Shown here: positions 1-17,382 of the stretch, in pieces
Layout of the letters: each line of letters begins with the position of its first letter
How positions within the stretch are numbered: position 1 is the first letter of the stretch
Notes under the pieces: generated by a model
What the model was told of the DNA's origin: nothing
The model's database searches: none
What the model saw: the letters and a program-made list of their open reading frames with translations, nothing else
Translations under genes and position numbers: made by a program
Assembly (NCBI GenBank): GCA_900617105.1
Contig: UYFQ01000701.1
Span: 1-35,173 of the forward strand
DNA: 35,173 nt
Direction: 5' to 3'
Source: Hydrurus foetidus
Taxonomy: Eukaryota

Positions 1-389
1 GTTGGATATAGCATAGCTATCCCTATGGGGACAATCCCTTTGGGGGAATTCCCTTTGGGTAATATCACTTAAGCCCAAGTGGAGGAGCGAGGGTAGCGCT
101 CACAGACCCGAGACCATCACTCAAACTGTACTGAAAGTTGCAACTGATGATGACAGTGAACAGCCAACTGTAGCTAGTATAGCTAGCCATGAACTGCTAT
201 GTTTTGACACAATGAGCACTTCTAATTAAAGAGACTATATGGCTGTGTGCCATTATACCTACACTAGAGTGAGCTGTTGAAGCGACCTTGGTCGACTAGC
301 TGAAAGCAAAGTGTGTTCTAAACGAATCACTGCTATCAACCAGGTGCTTTGACTGGATCCAGGATCCAAAAGACAGCCTTATTCCAAGA
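1..389 (+). repeat. Copia 5' LTR
   Basis: Matches 5501-5889 apart from 2 substitutions and 2 single-base homopolymer indels; identity stops after TTCCAAGA. Confidence 0.95.
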
Positions 390-399
390 TAATTAGAAG
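390..399 (+). promoter_or_regulatory. Non-canonical primer-binding site TAATTAGAAG (putative self-priming or half-tRNA type)
   Basis: Directly follows the 5' LTR, has no TGG, and is the exact reverse complement of LTR 219-228 (CTTCTAATTA). Confidence 0.7.
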
Positions 400-416
400 C
401 CGCTAGCTAGCTCAGA

Positions 417-3400
417 ATGAGTCAGCGAGGCGAGAAAGGCGCTGCCCAATCGAAACCTGAGAAGGGTGAAAAGCGCGAAAGTTCAGCAATCGCAGATGGC
501 TCGAGGCCAGAAAGTTTGCCTGAGATAACCCACAACGGGTGGAAAGAATGGGACGACAATATGCTGAAACTGAAAGAGTACATGAGAAGCAACTTTCAGG
601 ACCTTCAGAGCATCTGTCCCGACCCAATGCTGCTCACCATCAAACCTGCCTACAAGGTTTACAACTTCAAGCCGCCCAACTTCACATTACTGGAATCGTT
701 CACCGAAATCTCGGATCCAAAGGGATATCGAGCAAAGATGATGATGAATGATATCAATACCGACAGAGCATTGGTGAATAAGAGGATAATGAAGCAAATG
801 GACGATCGTGAATCGGCATATCGCCTGATTCGGAGCATGTGTTCACCATCGCTAAACGCGATTCTGATAGTGAATTCGGAATTCATAGCAGTCGAATTCG
901 ACGATCCACTTAAACTACTCGAAGTTATCAAGTCAGTTGTTACATCAAGATGTGATGGTAATCAGGAATTTGAGCGGTCCCAGGCCCTACGGGACTGGTA
1001 CACGCTGACTATGAGTACGGGTGAAGACATCGTACCGTACGGACGACGTGCGGTCAAGCTTTTCGATCGACTCGCTGCAACAGGAGTACCGGAAGCGCAG
1101 ATTCCAAATGCTGTCCAACAAGCGACAAAGCTAATTGAGGGGTTGAGTAGTACCTCACAGGTCTATCATGACTACAAGAACTATCTCAGCAATTATTTGG
1201 AGTGCAACAAGATTGACATTTATCCGAAGACCCTGATGGAAGCCATCAACGGAGCGACTAGATTCCATCGTGGGGTAAAGGGTAGCGCATTACAATCAGC
1301 GATAGTGACTCACCAAACGGCACTTGCAGCAAAGAACCTCATGAAACCGGGCGGTCCCCCAAAGGGCGAAAAACCACCCGCTAAAGAAAAGGCCAAGAAG
1401 ATCAATCCGGCAAAGATTAAAGAGCCGAAAGTGTCCTTTGCTAAAGATACAAAGGAGGGCAAGTTCAGTGGGATTTGTTACCACTGTGGAAAAGCAGGTC
1501 ATCGTGCTAGTGAGTGCAGAAAGAAGGCAGCCGGAGAGCCTCCTTCAGCCCCAAAAACATCAATGTCGGCGAGGAGACAAACTGAGGAAGATGACCCCAG
1601 TGCTCAAGGAGATGTCTACACTGCTTTTGGCCAAATGTGGGATCAAGAGGTTAACGAGAATGAACATGGCGACAGGCACTGTAGCGTGTGCTATACCACC
1701 ACACCGGTGGAAGTCGCAACCCTCGGTCCTCGGACCGATTTTTCTGCAAACCGTAACATCAACCAACATAGTACCTCCGAAGCCATCTTTGACACTGGAG
1801 CTACTGGCACCATCATTACATGTGCGGATGTTCTGAGTGACATCGCGACATGCACTCCTACTGTGTTCAAAGGCTTGCATGGTTCGCTTACTGTAACTAA
1901 AGCAGGAAACCTTCGTGACATTGGCATCGTTCATTTTGATCCGCGTGCTGGACTTTCCATCGTATCGGCATCCGATTGCCTGTTGCAAGGGCACAACTGG
2001 GAGTTTCGCCAGGGTTCTATGATAGATCAGGATGCATTTCTGCTCCACACTGATCAGAGCACCTACAAATTCCAACATCGTGGAGGGCTATATGTCGCCG
2101 ATTTGGCGGTGCCTCCGGAGCCGCGATATTCTGACGCCGCAGAGCGCAGAAATGCATATGCTCATCCGGCAGTGGTAAAAACACCATCTACAAGTATATT
2201 TTACTCTACAAAACTGCCTACAACGGACGCCAACGAAGCCAAATTCACGAAACGCGAAGTTCAAAGAAGCGCTGATGCACGACGCATGCAAGCGAGTTTG
2301 GGATTTCCACCAGATCAGAAATTCATTTCTGCATTGCGAGCTGGAACGTTTCTCAACTGCGACATCTTACCTGAAGATGTCGCACGTGCTACAGAAATTT
2401 GGGGACCAAACACGGCGTCACTCAAAGGACGCACTACTCGGCTGAGGCCTATGCCACCACCACAGCTACCTACTACGACACAAAACTTTGATGCGCAACA
2501 CATGCAATGTGACATCATGTTCATAAATAAACAGCCATTCCTAGTTTCAATTACCCATCCACTGGGAATTGTTTTGGTCGGCTGTGTTGACAATGTTACA
2601 ACGCCGGTGCTCAGACAGAGCCTCAAGCGCATGTTCGGCACCATCGGGTCCCGACGAATTTCAATCGTGAAATTTACAAGTGACAATGAGCGAGGCATCG
2701 CTGCACTTTTCAACGACATGAACGCCATGGGTGTCGAAGTGATTGCGGTTGGTCCAGGGCAACATGATCATATTATTGAACGAATGATCAGGCACCTAAA
2801 GGAGACCATCCGCTGTACCATCTTCAGTCTACCGTACCTACTGCCTGACATACTCATGTCCTACCTCGTGACAGCCTCTGCGAAGAAGTTACTACTCTTT
2901 CCCTCATCGACGAGGACAGATAGAATTTCCCCTTTTGAAGCTTTCTTTGGTAGAAAGGCGGACACGAAAAAAGATATTGGACCACCATTCGGGTCATACT
3001 GCCAAGTCACCGGGAGGGTGCTTAGCAACAACATGGATCCAAGAACCATTGGATGCCTATACCTAGAACCAAAGATGAATGGGACAGGCACTCATTCCTT
3101 TATGCGCATTGACACTAGGAGCGTCATATCGGCCAACCACTATGTGGTGCTACCGATACCACCACTCGTCACCACCACTGTAAATGGGTGGGCATCGAAG
3201 AACAAGATACATACATCGAAAGAACCAATATTCACTTTCCATGATAAAGACATCACAGGAGATATCGACGATGATATTGTCACAATGGATTCACCTTCAA
3301 TACCGGTGCCAACAATCCCGTTTCAACTTACACCTCCAATCTTACCGGTGTTCCCGGATGAAACCGACACGCCTCATACCATGATGGAACCTCAAATTGC

Positions 3401-5315
3401 TCAAGACCAAATTGAGATTCGGGGTGAAATGGAATCGGCGGGTGCTGAAAATACTAGTAATCTGACTTCCGACGAAGTATCCGGGCCAGAAACTACATTT
3501 GAAGCGGTACCGGAGGAGCAACCAGAGGCACCACCTACCACCGCAGTACGTACGTACATACCTAGTGCACCAGTTGAATTGCGTGAGAAGTCGACGAGAA
3601 TTCGAAAGGCACCAGACCGACTCAACTTAGTAGCTGACAAACTACCTATTCCAGCGCAGAAAGAAGGAATTAGGGGTGACTGGTCACTTATGACAGTTAC
3701 CCGGGCACTGAAACTTTTCCCGGATAAGGCTACCGCAGCCATTGAGTCAGAGGTCAAATCACTACTGGCAAAGGGGACATTTTCAGGAGTCCACATGGAA
3801 CAACTCACACCTACTCAGACAAAGAAGATCCTCCGTTCGAACATGAATGTTGTGGAGAAATACCTTCCAACACTAAACTCGAATGGCGATCGCCAAATCG
3901 ACAAGGTCAAGGCGCGCTTCTGTGTGGATGGGCGTGCACAAGTCAGAGAGGACTATGCTGCAGATGAAGTTGAGTCACCAACAGCGAGCATAGCTGCTAT
4001 ATTTACAGTTGCACAGATTGCTGCTGCGGAAAACCGTTTCATCATGGTCGGGGACGTTGGGTCCGCGTACCTCAACGCCAACATGCCTATGGATAAACCG
4101 GATAAAATCCTTCATATGTATATCGATAAGAATGTGACCGACGCCATCATCAAACAAGACAAATCTTTTTCGCCCTTCAGAAGACACAATGGAGGGTTGG
4201 TGGTGAGACTGGACAAAGCACTATACGGGTGTATTGAGTCTGCTAAACTATGGTACAACGAGATAGCCGGAACCCTACGGTCAAATGGTTTCACGGCTAA
4301 CCCGCGCGATATTTGCGTCTTCAACAAGGACATCAAAGGCAACCAATTTACGATCCTAGTCTACGTAGACGATCTAAAGATGACATGCGTGGACAAGAAA
4401 GCGGTTCTTGACATGGAAAAGATTTTGTTGAAAACGTACGGCCAATTCCGTACCACCCAAGAGCGCGTTCTACCGTACCTAGGTTGCATGTGGGATTACA
4501 CTGAGCCTAGATTTGTAAAGGTAACACAGATCGGGATGATCCAAGATTTGATATCATCAAGGGAAAAAAGCCATGCCGAACGCGGTATGAAGCTCATCGG
4601 AGACCCATCATCACCGGGTGCCCCACACCTATTTGAGCGGACCTTGGACTGCAAATTCCTGAATGAGAAAGACGCTAAAACCTTTCACACCGACGTTGCT
4701 ACGGCGCTATACCTGGGGAACCGAACACGCCCAGACATTGTATTAGTGTTGGGTGAACTGTGCAAACGTGTAAAGGCACCGACAACAGAAGACGACAAGA
4801 AACTCGATAGGCTCATATGCTATCTGAGGGCTACTAGAGACAAGCCATTACGACTCGGTTGCACTTTGCCAATGACAGTCACAGTATCAATTGATGCTGC
4901 ATTTGCTAACAGAGAGCAAATGAAATCAACCTCAGGAATGTGTGTCACATTAGGGGTGGGGAATTTTATTTCGAGTTCCAAGGTCCAGAAGCTGAATTCC
5001 AAGTCAAGTACGGAGTCCGAGATCATTGCGGTTTCCGACGGAATGAACATCCCGCTATGGCTTGCTGGTTTTATTGCATACCAAGGACATGGAAAACACC
5101 CAGTGAGGCTGGAACAAGACAATCAGTCATGTATCGCGCTGCTGAAAAAAGGTCGGTCTACCGCAGAGACCACCCGGTTTATTGAGGTACGACAATTCTG
5201 GATCTCAGACTACATCCGTATCGGTGCCGTAAACATTGTCTACGTGCCCACCGAGGATATGACATCCGATTACTACACCAAGCCACTACAAGGAACGATT
5301 TTTTCAAGTTGGTGA
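417..5315 (+). CDS. Copia Gag-Pol polyprotein (single ORF; true end probably 5335 after a 1-nt deletion in a T run)
   Basis: Zinc knuckle CYHCGKAGHRASEC; protease IFDTGAT; integrase D (CDIMF), D (TSDNE), E (IERMIR); RT KALYGCIESAKLWY and YVDDL; RNase H SIDAAFA, SSTESE, QDNQS, DYYTKPL. Confidence 0.96.
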   Translation: MSQRGEKGAAQSKPEKGEKRESSAIADGSRPESLPEITHNGWKEWDDNMLKLKEYMRSNFQDLQSICPDPMLLTIKPAYKVYNFKPPNFTLLESFTEISDPKGYRAKMMMNDINTDRALVNKRIMKQMDDRESAYRLIRSMCSPSLNAILIVNSEFIAVEFDDPLKLLEVIKSVVTSRCDGNQEFERSQALRDWYTLTMSTGEDIVPYGRRAVKLFDRLAATGVPEAQIPNAVQQATKLIEGLSSTSQVYHDYKNYLSNYLECNKIDIYPKTLMEAINGATRFHRGVKGSALQSAIVTHQTALAAKNLMKPGGPPKGEKPPAKEKAKKINPAKIKEPKVSFAKDTKEGKFSGICYHCGKAGHRASECRKKAAGEPPSAPKTSMSARRQTEEDDPSAQGDVYTAFGQMWDQEVNENEHGDRHCSVCYTTTPVEVATLGPRTDFSANRNINQHSTSEAIFDTGATGTIITCADVLSDIATCTPTVFKGLHGSLTVTKAGNLRDIGIVHFDPRAGLSIVSASDCLLQGHNWEFRQGSMIDQDAFLLHTDQSTYKFQHRGGLYVADLAVPPEPRYSDAAERRNAYAHPAVVKTPSTSIFYSTKLPTTDANEAKFTKREVQRSADARRMQASLGFPPDQKFISALRAGTFLNCDILPEDVARATEIWGPNTASLKGRTTRLRPMPPPQLPTTTQNFDAQHMQCDIMFINKQPFLVSITHPLGIVLVGCVDNVTTPVLRQSLKRMFGTIGSRRISIVKFTSDNERGIAALFNDMNAMGVEVIAVGPGQHDHIIERMIRHLKETIRCTIFSLPYLLPDILMSYLVTASAKKLLLFPSSTRTDRISPFEAFFGRKADTKKDIGPPFGSYCQVTGRVLSNNMDPRTIGCLYLEPKMNGTGTHSFMRIDTRSVISANHYVVLPIPPLVTTTVNGWASKNKIHTSKEPIFTFHDKDITGDIDDDIVTMDSPSIPVPTIPFQLTPPILPVFPDETDTPHTMMEPQIAQDQIEIRGEMESAGAENTSNLTSDEVSGPETTFEAVPEEQPEAPPTTAVRTYIPSAPVELREKSTRIRKAPDRLNLVADKLPIPAQKEGIRGDWSLMTVTRALKLFPDKATAAIESEVKSLLAKGTFSGVHMEQLTPTQTKKILRSNMNVVEKYLPTLNSNGDRQIDKVKARFCVDGRAQVREDYAADEVESPTASIAAIFTVAQIAAAENRFIMVGDVGSAYLNANMPMDKPDKILHMYIDKNVTDAIIKQDKSFSPFRRHNGGLVVRLDKALYGCIESAKLWYNEIAGTLRSNGFTANPRDICVFNKDIKGNQFTILVYVDDLKMTCVDKKAVLDMEKILLKTYGQFRTTQERVLPYLGCMWDYTEPRFVKVTQIGMIQDLISSREKSHAERGMKLIGDPSSPGAPHLFERTLDCKFLNEKDAKTFHTDVATALYLGNRTRPDIVLVLGELCKRVKAPTTEDDKKLDRLICYLRATRDKPLRLGCTLPMTVTVSIDAAFANREQMKSTSGMCVTLGVGNFISSSKVQKLNSKSSTESEIIAVSDGMNIPLWLAGFIAYQGHGKHPVRLEQDNQSCIALLKKGRSTAETTRFIEVRQFWISDYIRIGAVNIVYVPTEDMTSDYYTKPLQGTIFSSW

Positions 5316-5489
5316 AGAAAATACTAGGAAATTAAGTACTTCACATTATTGACTTACAGTTGAGCTATTTTTAAAACTTTTATTAGCAACAAAACTTGTA
5401 TGATCACTATAGCTTACCATAGTTACAAACACGATTTATGATTACATTTCTATGAAGAAATATGAATATGCCGCCTGAATGCTTGTGAC

Positions 5490-5499
5490 ATTAGGGGTG
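5490..5499 (+). promoter_or_regulatory. Polypurine tract ATTAGGGGTG
   Basis: Immediately precedes the TG start of the 3' LTR; exact copies occur internally at 3669-3678 and 4949-4958. Confidence 0.8.
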
Positions 5500-5889
5500 T
5501 GTTGGATATAGCATAGCTATCCCTATGGGGACAATCCCTTTGGGGAATTCCCTTTGGGTAATATCACTTAAGCCCAAGTGGAGGAGCGAGGGTAGCGCTC
5601 ACAGACCCGAGACCATCACTCAAACTGTACTGAAAGTTGCAACTGATGATGACAGTGAACAGCCAACTGTAGCTAGTATAGCTAGCCATGAACTGCTATG
5701 TTTTGACCCAATGAGCACTTCTAATTAAAAGAGACTATATGGCTGTGTGCCATTATACCTACACTAGAGTGAGCTGTTGAAGCGACCTTGGTCGACTAGC
5801 TGAGAGCAAAGTGTGTTCTAAACGAATCACTGCTATCAACCAGGTGCTTTGACTGGATCCAGGATCCAAAAGACAGCCTTATTCCAAGA
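5500..5889 (+). repeat. Copia 3' LTR (TGTTGGA...TCCAAGA)
   Basis: Direct repeat of 1-389; terminal inverted repeat matches 6/7. Confidence 0.95.
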
Positions 5890-6095
5890 CTTGCCGAAAC
5901 CTGGAACCCTCCCAAATAATTTTTTTTATGTATTCCTAATCAGGTAAAAGTTGAAAATACGATTCAATTTAGGAAAACGTGTACTATGCATCACAACAGA
6001 GTACGTTCAATATCATACTACAGCAGTGCATGTTGAGGTTTGACGTCTATGTTCCTATCAGAAGAGCAATCTTCCTATCATTTAGATCTGTTAGA

Positions 6096-8023
6096 ATGAG
6101 CGAATTCTTCGAGGAGATTCAGGCGGGCAGTAAGTCGAAGACGACTCTTGCCAACTATGCCAGTAGAGAAAAAAAGTTTCTGCTATGGTTGAAAACTGAC
6201 AGTCCTGGCTGTTGGGACAATGAAACCGACAGACTACCACGTCTTTCGAGGATAACAACAGAGATGATGTGCAAATTTTTATCGGTCCAATCTCTTCACA
6301 GAGTGACAGGAGTAATGAAGAGTCATTCAACTCCTGAGGGTCATCACTCCATGTACGTGAACTTCTTTTCAAGACAAAAATGTCTTATACAGTATCATGT
6401 GATATACAGTAAATGTCTTGTAGTGGTGTATTCTTTTATTAACAGCATTGTTTATTGTGTTAGGATGCACGGGGGACATAAAGTATGAGCACTTGAGAAT
6501 GGACGGTGATCACATAATTGTTGTTATCCCTCGACATAAGGGTGATCGCTGTGGGGAAAAACCGACCGAGAAGTCACTTTATTCCAATCCGACATGTCCT
6601 CAAATTTGTCCATTCCTGGCACTGGGTATTGTATTATTGTCAAGGGAGGTATACAGAGCACACGATAGCATCGTGCTTGGAAAAAAGACAGACGAAAATA
6701 TCAATGTGTGGTTGAGAAGTGTATCAGCAGCAGCTATTGCTGGAGAGGAGGGGGCAATCGTTGGAGTGAATCGTTCATATTTGACATCTCATTGTACAAG
6801 AAAGGGTTCGACATCATATGTGGTATTGTTACCCGGATTGAGTAATGTCATAGCTTGCTGGCTTAGAGCAGGGTGGCAGCTTGGAGGAGTATTACCTGCC
6901 TACATTACTGTCGAGTCGGGGGGTGATCAGACAGTCGGGAGGACTGTGTGTGGATTGCCATCTGGAGAACTCGACTTCACTCTTTTACCAGCGAGGTTCA
7001 AACCGGATGCAAGCATTAGCTGGCCTGATATTGTTTCTAACTATGACTCCTATCCGGACGACTTCCAATCCGTTATACCGTATCTAGTGGCTGCTGTTGT
7101 TCGCAATGCGCAGTGGATTAGCGAGAACCTACCTTCAGGCCATCCCATCTTTCTAGGCCGTTGTTGGAGGTCTGGGGCTCAAGTCAGTCTCAGCTCTTCT
7201 GTTCTCACACCCTCCAGAATGTCTTGCGAACAGACTGGAATGGTTGCAACAGGGATACCACCTCTCCACGTTTTCATGAATCAGCAGCACAAAAGTAATT
7301 CTGCTATCATGTCGGCAATTGTGCATCACAGCAGAGCTGCAGATTCAAGATGTGCTATAGGTAAGAATATCTGTAGGCTGTTAATTGTTACTGGTCACCA
7401 AGTGTAATATTTAATTCAGTGTCCTAAATTTGTTATCAGATATTCGCTTTGACAGAGTGGAGTCTATTCTTGAAGCTCTGCAAGCGTCATTCACGACAGG
7501 CGCTGTAAGTTCTAACACAGCAAACTCAAGCTCAAGATCTAGTTCAAATTCTTCTGCATCCAGCCAGCAAGAAGTCACCTCAGAGGAACTGCCTCTCACA
7601 TGGCAGTACGGTGGAAAGCTTCATCGAGTTCCAGACGGATTCCGATTGGTGACTAAAATGACTTTACAAGTGTTGTATTCGCTCTGGCACGAGGGCATTA
7701 AGACTCAAAGAATAGGACCGTTCAAGCACTTCGATGGCCACGATGTTCACAAAGACGATAGAAAACATTTATCCTCAGCGAGAGCTCTTGTCGCTGAGAT
7801 TGAGAAGTTTTTACCCACTGGATTTCTTGCATTTAGCTCCTCCAGTAGAGATGCAGCATTTAAAATTGCGTTTGATCAAATGGTGTCATCGTTCCATGAC
7901 ACCCAGATTGAGACAAATTTAAAGCGAAAAGCACTCGAGATTACTGCATTCACTACATTGTATACTAGCTTTTACTTGCCGAGCAAAAAAAGAAAAGCCT
8001 TAATACCTGTAGAGCCTAATTAG
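6096..8023 (+). pseudogene. Crypton-type (CryptonS-like) tyrosine recombinase with C-terminal DNA-binding-like domain; intron-containing, internally deleted
   Basis: Motifs HKGD, YSNPxxPQICPFLALG, SHCTRKG, LRAGWxLGGVxxxY, GGDQTVGRTVCGLP and C-terminal GGKLHRVPDGF..LYSLWHEG..IGPF. A GT-AG intron at 7361-7439 joins the 6448 and 7430 ORFs in frame. The N-terminal block (6096-~6390) is cut short and the first catalytic Arg is not visible. Confidence 0.8.
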
Positions 8024-9237: not shown

Positions 9238-12200
9238 TCAACGTTGTTTATTGATTAATCTTGTCATGTTATGATGACGCAAATTATCATGAAGTTTATC
9301 AACATCACAAAGACTTGAGTAAGGTTCCCAAGTGTTTTTATCAGAAGGGTAATTTAACCATTTGACTAAAAACTCTATTTGAGAACGTTGATGTTGACCA
9401 CGATGATCAAGGATTTCTCCTACGAAGTATTCCATATGGTCACGTCGTGCAACATCTAACGGATTTGTGACCGATGAGTTATATAGAAAGGGTTTCATTG
9501 CAGATACATGATAAACCGTAGTTTTCTGTGTGACAAGATCATATAAAGTGTAACGCGAATTTTCGCCACTAACCACTTTTAATGGACCTCTCCAATGCGT
9601 ATGAAGACGTGAAGGAGGTTATCCATCTCGATAGTGCATTAAGACATATGAGTCTTTGGGGTAATCAACATGCTGATTGATTTGAGACTGACTTTGATGA
9701 AGCAAGTCTGTGCGAAGAAGCTCTTTAGCTGAAGCTTTAAGAAGGCTATCTTGCGTTTTGATGAGATTGCTCATACATTTTGACAAAGGATTGTCATCAG
9801 TAGCAAGTCGCTCAGCAGGAGGTAAAAAGATTCCTCTGTCGTCACATTTCCAAAAAGAAATGCGAAGCAGAGATTTTCAAACGATCACTATGGTTGGCAT
9901 TTAAAATTCGTTGCACAAAAGGCAGTGATGTTTTGTAATCTACTAAAGTGTTAAATTATCAAAATTCAATGCCCGAAGGTGTCTATTAACTTCCTTGTAC
10001 ATGCGCTCAACAATAGCGTTCTCTTCTTATGAATAAGCTAACGTTAAACAATGTTGAGTGCCAATAAGAGATAAATACTCTTTGATAACTTCGGGAATGA
10101 AGTGTGGCCCATTATCAGAACGGAGTTGGAGAGGTGCGCCGAAACGACCGAAATGTTGCAAGAGACATTTAGCTGTCGAAAGTGCAGTAGCATCTTCCGT
10201 GTGAAACAGCTCAACCCATCTTGTGAACTTATCTATTATAACTAGTACGTACCCCGTCTGTAAACGGTCCTATGAAGTCTATGTTTACGCATTTCATAGG
10301 TGTGTAAGTGGTAGTCGAAAAGCCATTTGTGTGATCTATGAACCAACATGCTCACCTTTTGACAACACGAACAGTGATCTATGAACCACCTGACATGCTG
10401 ACGCATATATTGCCAAGTTTCATTTCTGTCTTTGAGACGCTTTAAAGTTCGCTCAAGACCAAAATGGCCAACATGAGAGTTATGTACCTTACTAATCGTA
10501 TTGTACTGCTTACGTATTAGTTTAAACTTCTCAATGATATTTGCAGACATGATTGTCGCAGGAGTATATTCCTGAGGGACATGAACCATATTGTTGCGAC
10601 AGAGTCGAGACAACGAATCAGCTATATCATTGTTAACACTAGAAATAAATTCGATTTTAAATGAGAATTCAGATAAGGCCATAAACCATCTGACGATCAT
10701 AGGATTTGAATTTTCCTTGATGTATAACAAGTTACGATGATCTGAACGTAATGTTAACAAACAATCACGTAATAGCGATTTTAAATACGTGCACGCATTT
10801 TTGTATCACTGCCCAACGAAGGTGAGCTTTGTTGAGTGATTTACTAACAAATGCTATGGGCGTTTCTTGTCCGTCAGCTAATTGGAAAAGTTAAGCACCT
10901 ACACCATAGTCCGATGCATCAGTGTGCAAGTATATTGGATCGGTGTCTCTTAAAAAGTGCATAGTCGTGCATTTAGAAATCTCAGATTTGATCAAGTCAA
11001 ATGCTCTGAGAGCTTCAATTGTCCAAGTTATTTTTTAGACTTGTTATTTATTTTTTTTAAGAAGCAACTGGTGTAATGGATATACAACCGTAGAAGCATT
11101 TTTAAGAAAGTCATTAAATAATTCACCAATCCTAAAAACCTTTTAAGTTGTTTAGATATAGTTGGTTTTAGAAAATCTAAGACATTCCGTATTTTTTGTT
11201 GTGACATTCTAAGTCCATCGGCAGATAAGACTTTGCCAACATAGTCAATTTAAGTATAACCGAGAAAACATTTATTTGGTTTTACAAATATTTTGTGTTT
11301 TCTAAAGCGTTCAAAAACAAGACGAAGTCTAAGAATTAACTCGAAGACATTGCAATCATCAATGTACATTTCGCATATGGAGTATATCAACCCTGCTAAC
11401 ACATTAGTCGACATAATCTGTTGAAAGTAAGAGGGTGCTTGTTTAGGCCCAAAGGGTAAACGAGTGAATTGATATACACCGCAGAAAAGTATGAATGCAG
11501 TATATGCGCGTGCAGCAAGTGTAAGTGGTGCTTGATGATAACCTTGAGTAAGGTCAAGAACAGCGAAAACTTTAGCTTTATGTGCCCCTATCCGACGCAA
11601 CATCTCACCAATGTGCGGGATGGGATGTGATGCATCTTCGGTACAGTTATTGAGGTTCCGAAAATCTATACACATACGCTTAGTTCCATCTGATTTAGGA
11701 ACTAGTAAAACTTGGCTATAATGAGCCGCGTTTGATTTCTCAACAATCCCTTGTTTTTCAAGCTTTGATATCTGACTATGAATGTCAGCTTGATCAACAT
11801 TTGATTTGGACCATGGAGGTTTTCTATGACGTGGGACTTTCCATTTTACGTCATCCACGTTAAAGTCAAAAGGGGGAATATCAGCAGGAGTGGCTAAAAG
11901 TTCACTGCTAAATATATCCTTAAACTCATTGACTAGCAAACGAAGTTTATTTTTCTGATCTTCATCACCTACTATGTGCATTAGCGAGAGTGGGTCTGTA
12001 TCAGGGAATTCATCTATCCAAGGTGAAAACGAGTCATTGATCGAATCGTTGATTTCATCCTCATCAGGGGGCACGAACCCAAAAAGTCGTTCAGACTCTT
12101 AAATTAGAGAAGCTAGTATGACATGTGTTTGGGTGACTGGTGGACTTTCCATTTGGGGTAATGGATCATCTTTTTGGGTCCCCTCGGAGGGTTGCAACTT

Positions 12201-12850
12201 CTCCTTAGGCTGACAGCCTCACGTCATAACCACTTGCTCAGAAGTTAAGACTTTTGCTAACGGGATCATGTTTGACAAAGCATTTGACGTAATTTGACGG
12301 GGAACTTTGAAAACAAATTCATTTAGCGAATTGCTTTTCGTCCCACTATAAGATCAATTTTCGATTCGTTTAAAATGTAAGCCGTGATTGAAAAAGACGA
12401 ATAAGTATTTAAATCAGGTCAAAAATAAGAAAGATTTGAGTCTATGGTGTCAGAAATATCATGACAATGATTATCTAGACCACTACAAACTCCACACAAT
12501 TTCTCTGGAGTGTGACTCGAATGGGAAAGGAAGAGGTGGAAGGCTAGTAGAGGTAGTTAGTTACAGCAGGTGCTAGAAGCTAGGGTTAACTTCTACGTGG
12601 AGGCTGTAAGTGGCTACGACGATACGACAGACTGTAGTGTACGGTGGGTAGTGTACCGTAGTACTATCCGGTAGGATCGGGACCTTGGACCCGGAACTAC
12701 CACAGGAGATTTATAAACGAAATGTGAAAGATTATGTCTAAGTATGATCCGGCGGCTAATGCAATTGCCGGCGAAGGATCCCGTATCCAGAAGAGTAGGC
12801 ACTCTTTCACTTCGACCCAGCATGAGTTGCTGTGATGTAGGAGAAATGAA
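9238..12850 (-). pseudogene. Gypsy pol remnants: protease, RT, RNase H, integrase, chromodomain
   Basis: PR LLDTGS; RT RMCIDFRNLN, LDLTQGYHQ, LPFG, YIDD (11250-12074); RH RSDHRNL..NDIADSLSR and IN HHCC HNSHVGH..CSCCQK (10242-10760); chromodomain EYFVGEILDHR..FLVKWLNY..NTWEP (9238-9430). Confidence 0.92.
12511..12704. mobile_element. 194-bp solo LTR nested in the Gypsy protease
   Basis: TGTG...CACA ends flanked by a GGAG duplication (12507-12510, 12705-12708); removing it restores the frame ...YKSPEKLCGVCSGLDN... Confidence 0.85.
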
Positions 12851-14278
12851 GAAAGGGATGAGTTCTGGATCCGTAAAAATATTAGATGAATTTAGGTTGC
12901 ATAGTTGCATACCTTTTTGTTTCTTCGCGGAGAGCGTCGCTGATGCAGCAGGCTTCGAAGACGTTGACGACGACGACGAGGAAGTCGATGAGGAAGAAGA
13001 AGAGGAAGAAGATTTAGGCACGTTGGGAATGAACTTAGCCTTTGGATCGACTTTCAAAAACTTTTTGTGACCCTCGGACTGAAGGTAGGGTTTGTCTGTA
13101 CTGTTATGGTACGGAGACGAAGTGAAGAAACATGCGGCATTGAGATGGCCAAGTTTCCCACAACCTGTGCAGATAGGTCTGTCAGACTTCTCAGATTGCA
13201 CAGATTGGTCATCCTCTCGTTGACGTTTTTGGATTTGTTTGTCGTGAGAGGTACGATGAGGAGTTTTGATTTATTTCGAATTTTCCCCATATGAAGGGTA
13301 GACATCAATAAATTTCAACGCTTCAATTGATTCACGTACTCTGGCAAGTTGCGCAAGCCATACAAATCGAAAGTCTTCGATTACAATGAGCCGCGGTGTC
13401 ATGTCGAGATGATGATGCAACACTGCTCTCCAGTTGATGGGTTCAGCTGGCAACTTATTGATGAGAATATTAGTTGCTTGCAGCTGCATAGCAGGTGTTG
13501 CATCAGGGAATGCTTCAACAACATCAGCTAAAAACTGATCTGTCTTCTCTTCCACTGATTTGTCCATCAGATCAAACTAAATTTGAACCGGAGTGATGGA
13601 TTCAATGAACCCTAGCGTGTCAATTCGATTGACAGCCGATCTAGGAACTGTGACATTCAATTCTCTACAGAAGTATTGATTTGTCCAACGCTGCCATTTA
13701 TTACAAGCTTCACGACGATCAGGATTTGTCGCAAACTTACGCATGAGAAGCGTTGTAAATGATAGGATGTTGGTAGCGTAGACAACATCAATTGGACGAA
13801 ACGGAGTTCCATTTGAAAGGAGAACCTCCATTACTCGACGAACTTCCTGACGAGAGGGCACGGCACTCAACTCAGGAGGCTTTTCACCAATCTGCACAGA
13901 TTGCTTTGATGGTGCCATCGTCATTGGAATCTCAGCCGAGGCTGGTATCTCAGCCGAGGCTGGTATCTCAGTCGAGACTGGTATCTCAGTCGGAACTGGT
14001 GAAACGTCAGGTAAAATAGCAGGCACGCCACTAACAGACATGACCGCAATTTCCGAAGTCGGCTGAGACGTCGGCAAAGACAGGTCTCCGGCGGGGTCCT
14101 GAATCGCAGGTGATCCAGGAGACTCTACTATGTCCGGAACATTTCGAACTGTCCGGGCAATGTAGGCTGCTCGGGCTGCAATACTGACGGCGCGGGGGAT
14201 GGACGGTCTGCTCGCAACGATGATGCTGCTGGCAGCAGGTTGGCGGGTGGCCCTTTTCTTCATGCGGCGTAGAGCCAT
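12851..14278 (-). pseudogene. Gypsy gag remnants (ORFs 13577-14278, 13271-13567 and the start of 12614-13201)
   Basis: Lies between the LTR and the protease; CCHC knuckle CTGCGKLGHLNAAC followed by a Ser-rich linker. Confidence 0.75.
13930..14000. repeat. 18-bp minisatellite x4 inside gag (EIPASA-like hexapeptides)
   Basis: Unit TCTCAG(C/T)CGAG(G/A)CTGGTA repeated four times, last copy diverged. Confidence 0.85.
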
Positions 14279-14474
14279 TGATGGCGCTCCGATATGAAAT
14301 TTAATGGACGGATGAATAGAAAGAATTGAGAAAAAAAAATCTCTTAATAGGATTCGGTGATGGCCGAATATCGATATTATGGCCGGTGGGGCACTAGGAC
14401 TGTTGGACTGGAAGATGAGGACTGAGGAAGACGGAAACTGAAGACGGTGGGCTGACGGAAAAAGCTCTGGTTAA

Positions 14475-15729: not shown

Positions 15730-17382
15730 ATGACTGACAGCACGATGAAGGACGTCAAGATTGGTGCGTGGACACTCTGGTAAAATATGATCCTCAGGAA
15801 TCCCTTACCCCAAACCACTTTTGTAAATCACAACGGGTCACCCATATACCCCACTGACATTTCCTCTAGGGCAATCGGAGTCGGTAGCGCATTAGGCGGC
15901 GATTTTTTTGGGTGGGAATTCGTTCTCTATGGCGGATTTTTGTCTGCTTTGGGTGCAACCGCGTTTGCAGCATCGTTCTACTGGTTGTACGCGCTATCGA
16001 TAACAGAACTTGCAGCTCGTTACAGGACATCAGGAGGATCATTCGATTTCGTTCGTGTCGCTCTTGGAAGGCGTGCTGGTGCATTGATGGCTGTCCTTGG
16101 GCTGCTGAAACTACTTCTCGCAAACTCCGCTTTGGCATTAGCGATATCTTCATACTTGATTCAAGGTGGTATGCCCCGCAACATGCAACTCACCTGTTGG
16201 ATCATTACATATGGTGCATTCACTCTACTAGACACTATCGGAGTCAGGCAGTCCGCCAACATCCAAGTTTCAGCTACAGTCTTATGTGTTATGATACTGA
16301 TATTTTACTCGGCGTCCTCGTTCGAGAAATTTAGCTACGCGCGAATCCGTCGAAGTGGTTTAATCAATGACGGTATTCTTGGATTTTTCAAGGGATTCCC
16401 GTTTGCTCTACAATTCTTTGATGGCTTTGAGGAGGTACCTCTATTGATGGGATACGCCATCGACCCTGAAAAATCAATCCCTCAGGCGATAGTATCTTGC
16501 TACATCACAATTTTATTTATCGCTTTAATGATTCTATTCTCTGGTGCGGGCATCACGTCTTTCAGTGTGTTGATAGCCTCAGAAGCACCTCTTATGAACG
16601 GCATAGATGCAGTGTATGGGCACAGTACTTTTGCATCGGATGTAGTTGCGAATTTAGTTGTCGTCGGATTGTTGGTCAATTTTTTCGCTTTTGTTTTATT
16701 CACAAGTCAGCAAATGCAGGCAGTGGCTGAGGCGGGACAACTTCCAGCGTTTCTAGCTTATCGTGATCCTGTGCACGGAGCGCCAATAGCGGCATCTATC
16801 TGCTCTTCTGTGGTTGGATTGATTTTAACAGCTGGTTTCGCCTTCATATTTGGGGAGTCGGCGGCTCAGGACACATTAGTGACAGCCGCTCTAATGCCGG
16901 CTGTGCTCGGCTACGCACTACTACTTGAATGCATAGTGCGCATTAGGGAAGTTGAGAGGAGAAATCTATCCGGCAATGTCGATCCGCACGACTGCGTCAT
17001 ATTAGGACAGGAGCCGGGGGACCTCCGATTCTACTGGGGGCTGAATGGGGCCAAGATGGCGCAGCTTATGTGCGTCATGTTCGTTATCAGTCTCCTTGTG
17101 CTTGCAACCATCTCGCGTGATTTTCGGTGGGGTTTGGTTGTTCTACTTCTTTTGAGCACCTCTATGCTGATTGGGATGGAGAAATTCTTCTCAGCTACGA
17201 AGACCACAACCGAAGATTTCGACAGCAAAACATTCTACGATGAATCCAAGCAGGAAAACATCGATGACACAACTTGTCTATTAGCTCCCTCACTGCCTAA
17301 TACCGACATCAGTTGTTCCGACAGTAATTTCTGCAACGCAAAATTTTCACGAATCGAAGATTTGGAAGTGTACCACTGCTGA
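15730..17382 (+). CDS. APC-superfamily amino acid/amine permease, ethanolamine permease (Eat)-like; exons 15730-15779 and 15870-17382
   Basis: Splicing GT-AG intron 15780-15869 gives MTDSTMKDVKIGAWTLWAIGVGSALGGDFFGW; ELAARYRTSGGSFDFVRVALG, FFDGFEEVPL and DPEKSIP are APC motifs; about 12 hydrophobic segments. Confidence 0.88.

What the first reader, a model, noticed from the sequence alone, without database searches (positions are those of the whole stretch)
219..399. Copia element with a Tf1-like self-priming structure instead of a tRNA PBS
Seen: the 10 nt directly after the 5' LTR (390-399, TAATTAGAAG) have no TGG and are the exact reverse complement of LTR 219-228 (CTTCTAATTA), so A228 pairs with the first base after U5. 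Next to this duplex, 237-246 (ATATGGCTGT) pairs 9/10 with 373-382 (ACAGCCTTAT) across an 8x7-nt internal loop. A TATA-like motif at 178-181 lies ~40 nt upstream of 219. Established: in S. pombe Tf1 and Tf1/sushi chromoviruses the first ~11 nt of the mRNA anneal to the PBS, helped by an adjacent R-U5 stem, and are cleaved to make the primer. Inference: this Ty1/Copia primes itself. I know this mechanism only from Ty3/Gypsy elements, so it would suggest an independent origin of tRNA-free priming.
Basis: partly seen in the sequence, partly recalled or inferred. Interest (0 to 1): 0.88.

Follow-up and report, generated by a model that had tools for sequence, protein, structure and literature searches.

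The report
Self-priming Copia retrotransposon lineage
An intact Copia-type jumping gene has no tRNA-type primer site; the 10 bases after its left repeat pair with its own predicted RNA start, and about 30 distant relatives keep such a pairing with different letters, so the lineage likely primes its own copying, as was already predicted for one plant Copia group.

Summary
Observation confirmed. Window 1-5889 is a young, intact Copia-order LTR element (LTRs 99% identical, one 1632-codon ORF). Bases 390-399 lack TGG and are the exact reverse complement of LTR 219-228 (0 of 2000 shuffles). Relatives at about 25-40% protein identity keep a perfect 9-19 nt helix at the LTR end with different letters: 20 of 22 in a hand-defined set (cross-pairing control 3 of 506), and 10 of 30 in a blind set, most of whose misses are probably 3' LTRs. 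The LTR arm begins at an initiator-like CA in 19 of 22 and 10 of 10, so it is likely the RNA 5' end. Tf1-like self-priming is the best reading (about 0.85), but no start site or primer was measured. Not supported: the extra R-U5 stem and TATA are not conserved, and 'Ty3/Gypsy only' is wrong, since self-priming was already predicted for plant TAR/Houba Copia (PMC6317226). The lineage includes diatom elements. This scan noted the same thing before on other DNA (31 word-matched findings, at least 6 genomes; those shown mostly diatoms). New variant of a known kind; interest 0.55.

The parts
1..389 (+). 5' LTR (first base outside the window; TG...GA termini by comparison with the 3' LTR)
   Evidence: end at 389 also from diverging contigs
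178..181 (+).
216..220 (+). Initiator-like GCACT; predicted transcription start A218 or C219
   Evidence: CA at arm start in 19 of 22 elements and 10 of 10; diatom motif TCAH+1W in PMC4686930; start site not measured
219..228 (+). Predicted self-primer (10 paired nt, 11 nt if the RNA starts at A218)
   Evidence: mean pair probability 0.98
237..246 (+). R arm of a local R-U5 stem (family-specific, not conserved in relatives)
373..382 (+). U5 arm of the R-U5 stem; family variants A373G and C378T would keep G-U pairs
390..399 (+). Primer-binding site, complementary to 219-228, no TGG
418..5315 (+). Single intact Gag-PR-IN-RT-RH ORF (1632 codons from the ATG), Copia order
1473..1523 (+). Gag CCHC zinc knuckle
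   Evidence: Pfam zf-CCHC
2502..2804 (+). Integrase core D-D-E; the N-terminal HHCC motif appears absent
   Evidence: motifs read in alignment A1; HHCC expectation from PMC5445492
3888..4439 (+). Reverse transcriptase (RVT_2, YVDD)
   Evidence: (62.6 bits)
4887..5288 (+). RNase H with D-E-D-D residues present
5493..5499 (+). Polypurine tract AGGGGTG; relatives share RGRGTG before TGTT
5500..5889 (+). 3' LTR

Best explanation
This is an intact, young Copia-order retrotransposon whose primer site pairs with a stretch of its own LTR and which likely primes its own reverse transcription with the predicted first 10-11 bases of its RNA, as Tf1 does. Shown: no TGG, exact complement 219-228:390-399, and the same geometry with different letters across the lineage. 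Inferred steps: (1) Pol II starts at A218/C219 at an initiator-like CA. (2) The RNA 5' end folds onto the PBS. (3) A cut near 228/229 frees a 3' OH, probably by the element's RNase H as in Tf1. (4) RT extends into U5 from base 389. (5) Plus-strand synthesis copies the primer into the new PBS, which would explain perfect complementarity that stops at the start site while the letters drift. Unlike Tf1, primer length varies between families (about 9-19 nt) and no conserved accessory duplexes were found.
For: Anchored helix of 9 nt or more in 21 of 23 elements (window plus 22 relatives); the 2 misses are decayed copies with 85-89% LTR identity. PBS of one element against LTR of another: 3 of 506 reach 9 nt, 2 of them one family. 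TGG within the first 8 nt in 0 of 23. L033 has both LTRs and a 5-bp target duplication, and its 14-nt helix starts at the first internal base. CA at the arm's 5' edge in 19 of 22 against a background of 0.16 (binomial p 8e-13, kinship not corrected). Blind scan of the other loci: all 10 helices of 15-16 nt follow an LTR-end-like motif and all 10 start at CA. Mean primer:PBS pair probability 0.80 or more in 21 of 22 folds. Two tRNA-primed Copia controls show TGG and self-helices of only 4-5 nt. RNase H residues intact. Precedent: Tf1 (PMC7175516) and TAR (PMC6317226).
Against: No start site, primer or cDNA was measured. In this element the initiator match is GCACT, not TCAHW, and the helix is among the shorter ones. 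The accessory duplexes that Tf1 needs are not conserved (bioRxiv 10.1101/2022.12.06.519325). L042 folds without the primer:PBS helix. In the blind set 19 of 30 loci show no LTR-end helix; I read them as 3' LTRs followed by host DNA but did not verify this. For 6 of the 23 elements the LTR end was set by eye with the helix in view.
Confidence: 0.85

Rival explanations
1. The LTR:PBS helix is real but structural (packaging, dimerisation, or protection of the RNA 5' end), and priming uses something else, such as a host small RNA or a nick elsewhere.
For: No conserved Tf1-type accessory duplexes. Fungal GalEa Copia elements also lack a tRNA PBS and carry a conserved hairpin of unknown role there (PMC5445492).
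Against: The 3' arm starts at offset 0 or -1 of the LTR end as the longest helix in 19 of 23 elements, exactly where priming must occur. The helix is Watson-Crick perfect and ends at the initiator. No other primer site is seen (TGG in 0 of 23).
Confidence: 0.09
2. This family is primed by a half-tRNA. The reverse complement of 390-399 contains CU-UCU-AA, which reads like the anticodon loop of tRNA-Arg(UCU) (tRNA loop rules recalled, not from a call).
For: Half-tRNA priming is known in Copia lineages Osser, Bryco and Bianca (PMC6317226). The window's PBS fits an anticodon-loop pattern at registers 9-10.
Against: It does not explain the matching copy in the LTR at the initiator. Relatives have different PBSs that match their own LTRs, and no fixed anticodon-loop register is shared (7 of 23 have none). 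Host tRNAs could not be tested: no genome is held and the window has no tRNA gene.
Confidence: 0.04
3. The 10-nt match is chance in an AT-rich stretch.
For: An 11-nt perfect helix occurs by chance elsewhere in the first 700 nt of this element; PBSs are 64-100% AT.
Against: 0 of 2000 shuffles reach it when anchored at 390; 21 of 23 elements show it; cross-pairing gives 3 of 506.
Confidence: 0.01

Closest known systems
Tf1/Tf2 of Schizosaccharomyces pombe and the Tf1/sushi group (Ty3/gypsy chromoviruses)
   Same: PBS directly after the 5' LTR is complementary to the (here predicted) RNA 5' end; 10-11 nt here against 11 nt in Tf1; no tRNA match (PMC7175516 passages).
   Different: Copia domain order and RVT_2-type RT. 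Primer length varies from about 9 to 19 nt across families. The three-duplex 'pretzel' is not conserved. Nothing is shown by experiment here.
Plant Ty1/copia TAR lineage (Houba, Osr-1)
   Same: Copia elements predicted to self-prime from a complement of 10 bp or more between LTR and PBS (PMC6317226).
   Different: This element groups with diatom and aquatic-metagenome elements far from the one plant-like Copia in my tree and scores only 62.6 bits on RVT_2. No TAR sequence was available, so separate origin is inferred, not tested.
Diatom CoDi elements (CoDiI, CoDiII; CoDi A-D)
   Same: Divergent Copia of aquatic protists, 5-8 kb; proteins named from Nitzschia inconspicua, Fragilaria crotonensis and Chaetoceros tenuissimus fall in the same RT-RH clade, at about 33% identity.
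   Different: The main texts of PMC2806351 and PMC2774666 do not describe the primer site (term look-ups; supplement of the first unreadable). The window's element lies in its own sub-clade with no named member. The CoDi group could not be assigned.
Fungal GalEa Copia elements with a Conserved Hairpin Site
   Same: No tRNA PBS; a TAATTAG-like word directly after the LTR in many families (PMC5445492 section 10).
   Different: Their partner sequence lies 12-41 bp downstream in the internal region and is conserved in sequence; the authors found no LTR complement. Here the partner is in the LTR and the letters vary.

Membership tests
Ty1/copia superfamily | LTRs flanking gag-pol with order PR-IN-RT-RH | tested here: met
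Ty1/copia superfamily | RT of the RVT_2 family | tested here: met
   62.6 bits against a cut-off of 31.6
Ty1/copia superfamily | Integrase with HHCC and DD(35)E | tested here: inconclusive
   D-D-E present; HHCC not recognisable in the window's protein or 6 of 27 aligned relatives inspected; no Pfam integrase hit at E 0.1
Tf1-type self-priming (works like) | PBS complementary to an LTR segment, not to a tRNA 3' end | tested here: met
Tf1-type self-priming (works like) | The complementary segment is the RNA 5' end | tested here: inconclusive
   Indirect only: initiator-like CA at the arm edge in 19 of 22 and 10 of 10; no start-site data
Tf1-type self-priming (works like) | Three-duplex 'pretzel' in the 5' UTR | tested here: not met
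   No enrichment of R:U5 or R:post-PBS duplexes over shuffles in 20 elements; only a local R-U5 stem in this family
Tf1-type self-priming (works like) | RNase H cleavage of the RNA duplex yields the primer | not testable with these tools
   RNase H acidic residues intact; needs an experiment
Tf1/sushi group (membership) | Ty3/gypsy order PR-RT-RH-IN with chromovirus RT | tested here: not met
   Copia order
Plant TAR lineage (membership) | RT-RH clusters with TAR elements | not tested
   No TAR sequence could be fetched; far from the one plant-like Copia used
CoDi lineages (membership) | RT clusters with CoDiI/CoDiII reference elements | tested here: inconclusive
   Clusters with diatom-named proteins (SH-aLRT 99, quick tree, two long-branch outgroups), but no CoDi reference was in the tree

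The most novel reading that the evidence does not exclude
A deep, widespread Copia lineage of diatoms and other aquatic protists evolved tRNA-free priming independently of both Tf1/sushi and plant TAR, and does it with a simpler rule: one duplex of any sequence and of 9-19 nt between the capped RNA end and the PBS, with no pretzel. Its RT/RNase H would then cut an RNA:RNA duplex by position rather than by a fixed structure. Self-priming in several distant lineages would also reopen the proposal (PMC3601003) that it is the ancestral state of LTR elements.
Probability: 0.5. Interest if true: 0.72.

Novelty: new variant of a known kind. Interest (0 to 1): 0.55.

Why it matters
Self-primed reverse transcription has been shown by experiment for Tf1 and predicted for its group and for one plant Copia lineage. 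A large protist Copia lineage that keeps the pairing through complete sequence turnover, with the primer arm pinned to an initiator motif, is strong comparative evidence that the mechanism is widespread. It gives a sharp test in genetically tractable diatoms. It also means that PBS-dependent annotation would miss or misjudge these elements, and that host control through tRNA fragments would not reach them (inference).

Tried and rejected
No whole genome is held, so host tRNAs, other copies and the 5' target duplication could not be checked. Sequencing runs: no RNA holder listed; all laid runs are contigs and cannot show a start site. In one search no substitution was listed in 214-247 or 379-399 while 210-213, 400, 402 and 404 vary; with about 28 variable sites in 290 nt this is not significant alone (my estimate, p about 0.13 for the 20 paired bases). 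Viral contigs: no relative. Rfam on 1-6000: 0 matches at E up to 1, so no ribozyme family. No tRNA gene in the window. R-U5 stem, third duplex and TATA as lineage features: rejected. Host identity: the neighbouring permease gave no named organism; its nearest Atlas cluster is eukaryotic, commonest Oomycota, a weak hint of a stramenopile; an Atlas look-up of the RT gave no result. Naming the CoDi group failed: cluster look-up gave no accessions and the supplement of PMC2806351 was unreadable; it may describe primer sites. The careful tree did not finish; both trees are quick trees with SH-aLRT only (L025 left out of the second as a near twin of L016, decayed L049 and L080 out of both). The repeat pair 21609-22738 / 27003-28134 is not a second LTR element. 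Literature: searches listed no paper on self-priming in diatom or stramenopile Copia; the library lacks most subscription journals and Repbase. I recall, unverified, Repbase notes on Thalassiosira Copia families that mention no tRNA PBS and a self-priming palindrome.

Full report
THE ELEMENT. Window 1-5889 is one LTR retrotransposon. The LTRs (1-389 and 5500-5889) are 98.97% identical; the window starts one base into the 5' LTR. One open frame runs 411-5315 with the ATG at 418. It holds a CCHC knuckle, a DTG protease motif, an integrase D-D-E core, an RVT_2 reverse transcriptase (62.6 bits) and an RNase H, in Copia order. The polypurine tract is 5493-5499. The termini are TG...GA; contigs diverge after 389, and relative L012 also ends in AGA. 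Near-identical sequence occurs in freshwater, sediment and one cultured-organism set of runs (20 of 24 listed rows, 8 studies).

THE OBSERVATION. Bases 390-399 are the exact reverse complement of 219-228 and have no TGG. The 237-246:373-382 stem pairs 9 of 10. Both are in the MFE fold of 210-420 (z -2.33). Anchored at 390, a 10-nt match arose in 0 of 2000 LTR shuffles. An unanchored 11-nt helix exists elsewhere in the first 700 nt, so position matters, not length.

RELATIVES. For 22 of them I could define an LTR start, an LTR end and the following bases; several are one-LTR circles closed on their own overlap. With the window that makes 23. A perfect helix of 9-19 nt starting at the first internal base occurs in 21 of 23. 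The misses, L049 (5 nt) and L080 (8 nt), are decayed copies with broken frames. Own-LTR shuffles reached the observed length in at most 7 of 2000 for these 21. PBS of one element against the LTR of another reached 9 nt in 3 of 506 pairs, 2 of them within one family. None of the 23 has TGG in the first 8 nt.

HOW THE ENDS WERE SET. LTR ends came from two-LTR comparison for the window, L033, L036, L049 and L080; L033 also has a 5-bp target duplication. Ranking by terminal inverted repeat alone put the helix-bearing site in the top four for 16 of 23; 6 ends were set by eye with the helix in view. To limit that circularity I scanned each region for its longest long-range helix: it starts at offset 0 or -1 of the LTR end in 19 of 23. 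I then ran a fully automatic scan on the other 58 loci. 28 were unusable (no RNase H end, no LTR start found, or too short). Of 30 usable, 10 have a helix of 15-16 nt, and all 10 follow an LTR-end-like motif (CAAC, TAAC or CAGCA). One more has a 9-nt helix after CTAACA. The other 19 have only 8-11 nt helices at no such motif; these are probably 3' LTRs followed by host DNA, which I did not verify, and some may be counter-examples.

IS THE ARM THE RNA 5' END? The LTR arm begins within one base of the A of a CA in 19 of 22 elements, mostly TCA, against a background of 0.16 (binomial p 8e-13, kinship not corrected). The same holds in 10 of 10 in the blind set. An initiator-like TCAH(+1)W is proposed for diatoms (PMC4686930, passages), and oomycete promoters use an INR such as TCATTCT and lack TATA boxes (PMC3599244, passages). 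Folding from that start gives a mean primer:PBS pair probability of 0.98 here and at least 0.80 in 21 of 22 elements. This is indirect; no run could show a start site.

WHAT FAILED. Tf1 needs three duplexes (bioRxiv 10.1101/2022.12.06.519325, passages). Across 20 elements neither R:U5 pairing (mean z +0.20) nor R:post-PBS pairing (mean z -0.02) beats shuffles, and the window's own R:U5 duplex has p 0.14. In its favour locally, the window's R-U5 region folds at z -2.4 and two family variants in the stem would keep G-U pairs. A TATA-like word lies upstream of the arm in only 6 of 22.

MECHANISM. Most likely the RNA starts at 218/219, its first 10-11 bases anneal to 390-399, a cut near 228/229 frees a 3' end, and RT copies U5 from 389. 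In Tf1 the first 11 bases pair with the PBS and RNase H cuts between bases 11 and 12 (PMC7175516, passages). Copying the primer into the PBS during plus-strand synthesis (general LTR biology, recalled) would keep the match perfect and end it at the cap while the letters drift, which is the pattern seen. The pairing and its conservation are shown; start site, cut and priming are inferred. Confidence 0.85. Rivals: a structural helix with another primer (0.09), half-tRNA-Arg priming of this one family (0.04), chance (0.01).

PLACEMENT. In a quick RT-RH tree the self-pairing elements and proteins named from Nitzschia, Fragilaria and Chaetoceros form one clade (SH-aLRT 99), apart from a Ty1-like and a plant-like Copia that carry TGG primer sites and self-helices of only 4-5 nt. 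These two outgroups are long branches, and no TAR, GalEa or CoDi reference was available. The window's element sits in a sub-clade without named members, at about 33% identity to the diatom proteins.

WHAT IS KNOWN. Self-primers were proposed for the Copia families Houba and Osr-1 and predicted for the plant TAR lineage (PMC6317226, passages and section 10), so 'Ty3/Gypsy only' is wrong. Fungal GalEa elements lack a PBS but have a different, internal hairpin (PMC5445492, passages and section 10). The CoDi papers do not mention priming in their main text (PMC2806351, passages and section 18, supplement unreadable; PMC2774666, passages). PMC3601003 (passages) speculates that the LTR precursor self-primed. 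Searches listed nothing on self-priming in this lineage; Repbase and most subscription journals are outside the library, and I recall, unverified, Repbase remarks on self-priming palindromes in Thalassiosira Copia families. This scan has noted the same lineage-level claim before: 31 findings match the words in at least 6 genomes, and 7 of the 8 shown are diatom-type Copia. I reached my reading before that look-up; those notes are not independent support. No look-alike of this RT was found among them.

VERDICT. Real and well supported as a lineage-wide feature; a new variant of a known mechanism, not a new kind. What this case adds is an intact element in a separate sub-clade, the initiator test with a blind replicate, and the negative result on accessory stems. 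Interest 0.55.

Noticed in passing
window 2280-2390 (P0001 residues 624-660): The integrase N-terminus lacks a recognisable HHCC zinc motif (QxxLGFP, CDIL in its place); 6 aligned relatives inspected also lack it, while the D-D-E core is intact.
   Followed up: partly
window 382-389 and 5882-5889; L012: Non-canonical LTR end TG...GA, shared with distant relative L012.
   Followed up: partly
L016 1485-1489, L023 2044-2048, L025 1640-1644, L034 3778-3782, L051 2041-2045: In several relatives gag and pol are in frame and split by a single stop codon, suggesting read-through.
   Followed up: no
L081 (NC_015657.1) and L082 (NZ_CP115302.1); also NZ_CP115454.1: Records listed as bacterial plasmids look like eukaryotic Copia retrotransposon DNA: L081 is a Ty1-like one-LTR circle with a tRNA-type PBS, L082 a plant-like Copia. 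Probably contamination or mis-assembly (the third record was not opened).
   Followed up: partly
window 5973-8023: ORFs resembling a tyrosine-recombinase (Crypton-like) element directly downstream of the 3' LTR (resemblance recalled, not searched).
   Followed up: no
window 10242-14470, minus strand: A broken Ty3/gypsy-like element (RT, RNase H/integrase and Gag/protease pieces) (read by eye). Its primer site was not examined.
   Followed up: no
window 15784-17382: Intron-free amino-acid/ethanolamine permease-like gene; the nearest Atlas clusters are one eukaryotic (commonest Oomycota) and then bacterial.
   Followed up: partly
window 21609-22738 / 27003-28134 and 28100-35000: A duplicated gene segment of about 1.1 kb with microsatellites, followed by a TGTC-type simple-repeat array of about 7 kb.
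   Followed up: partly
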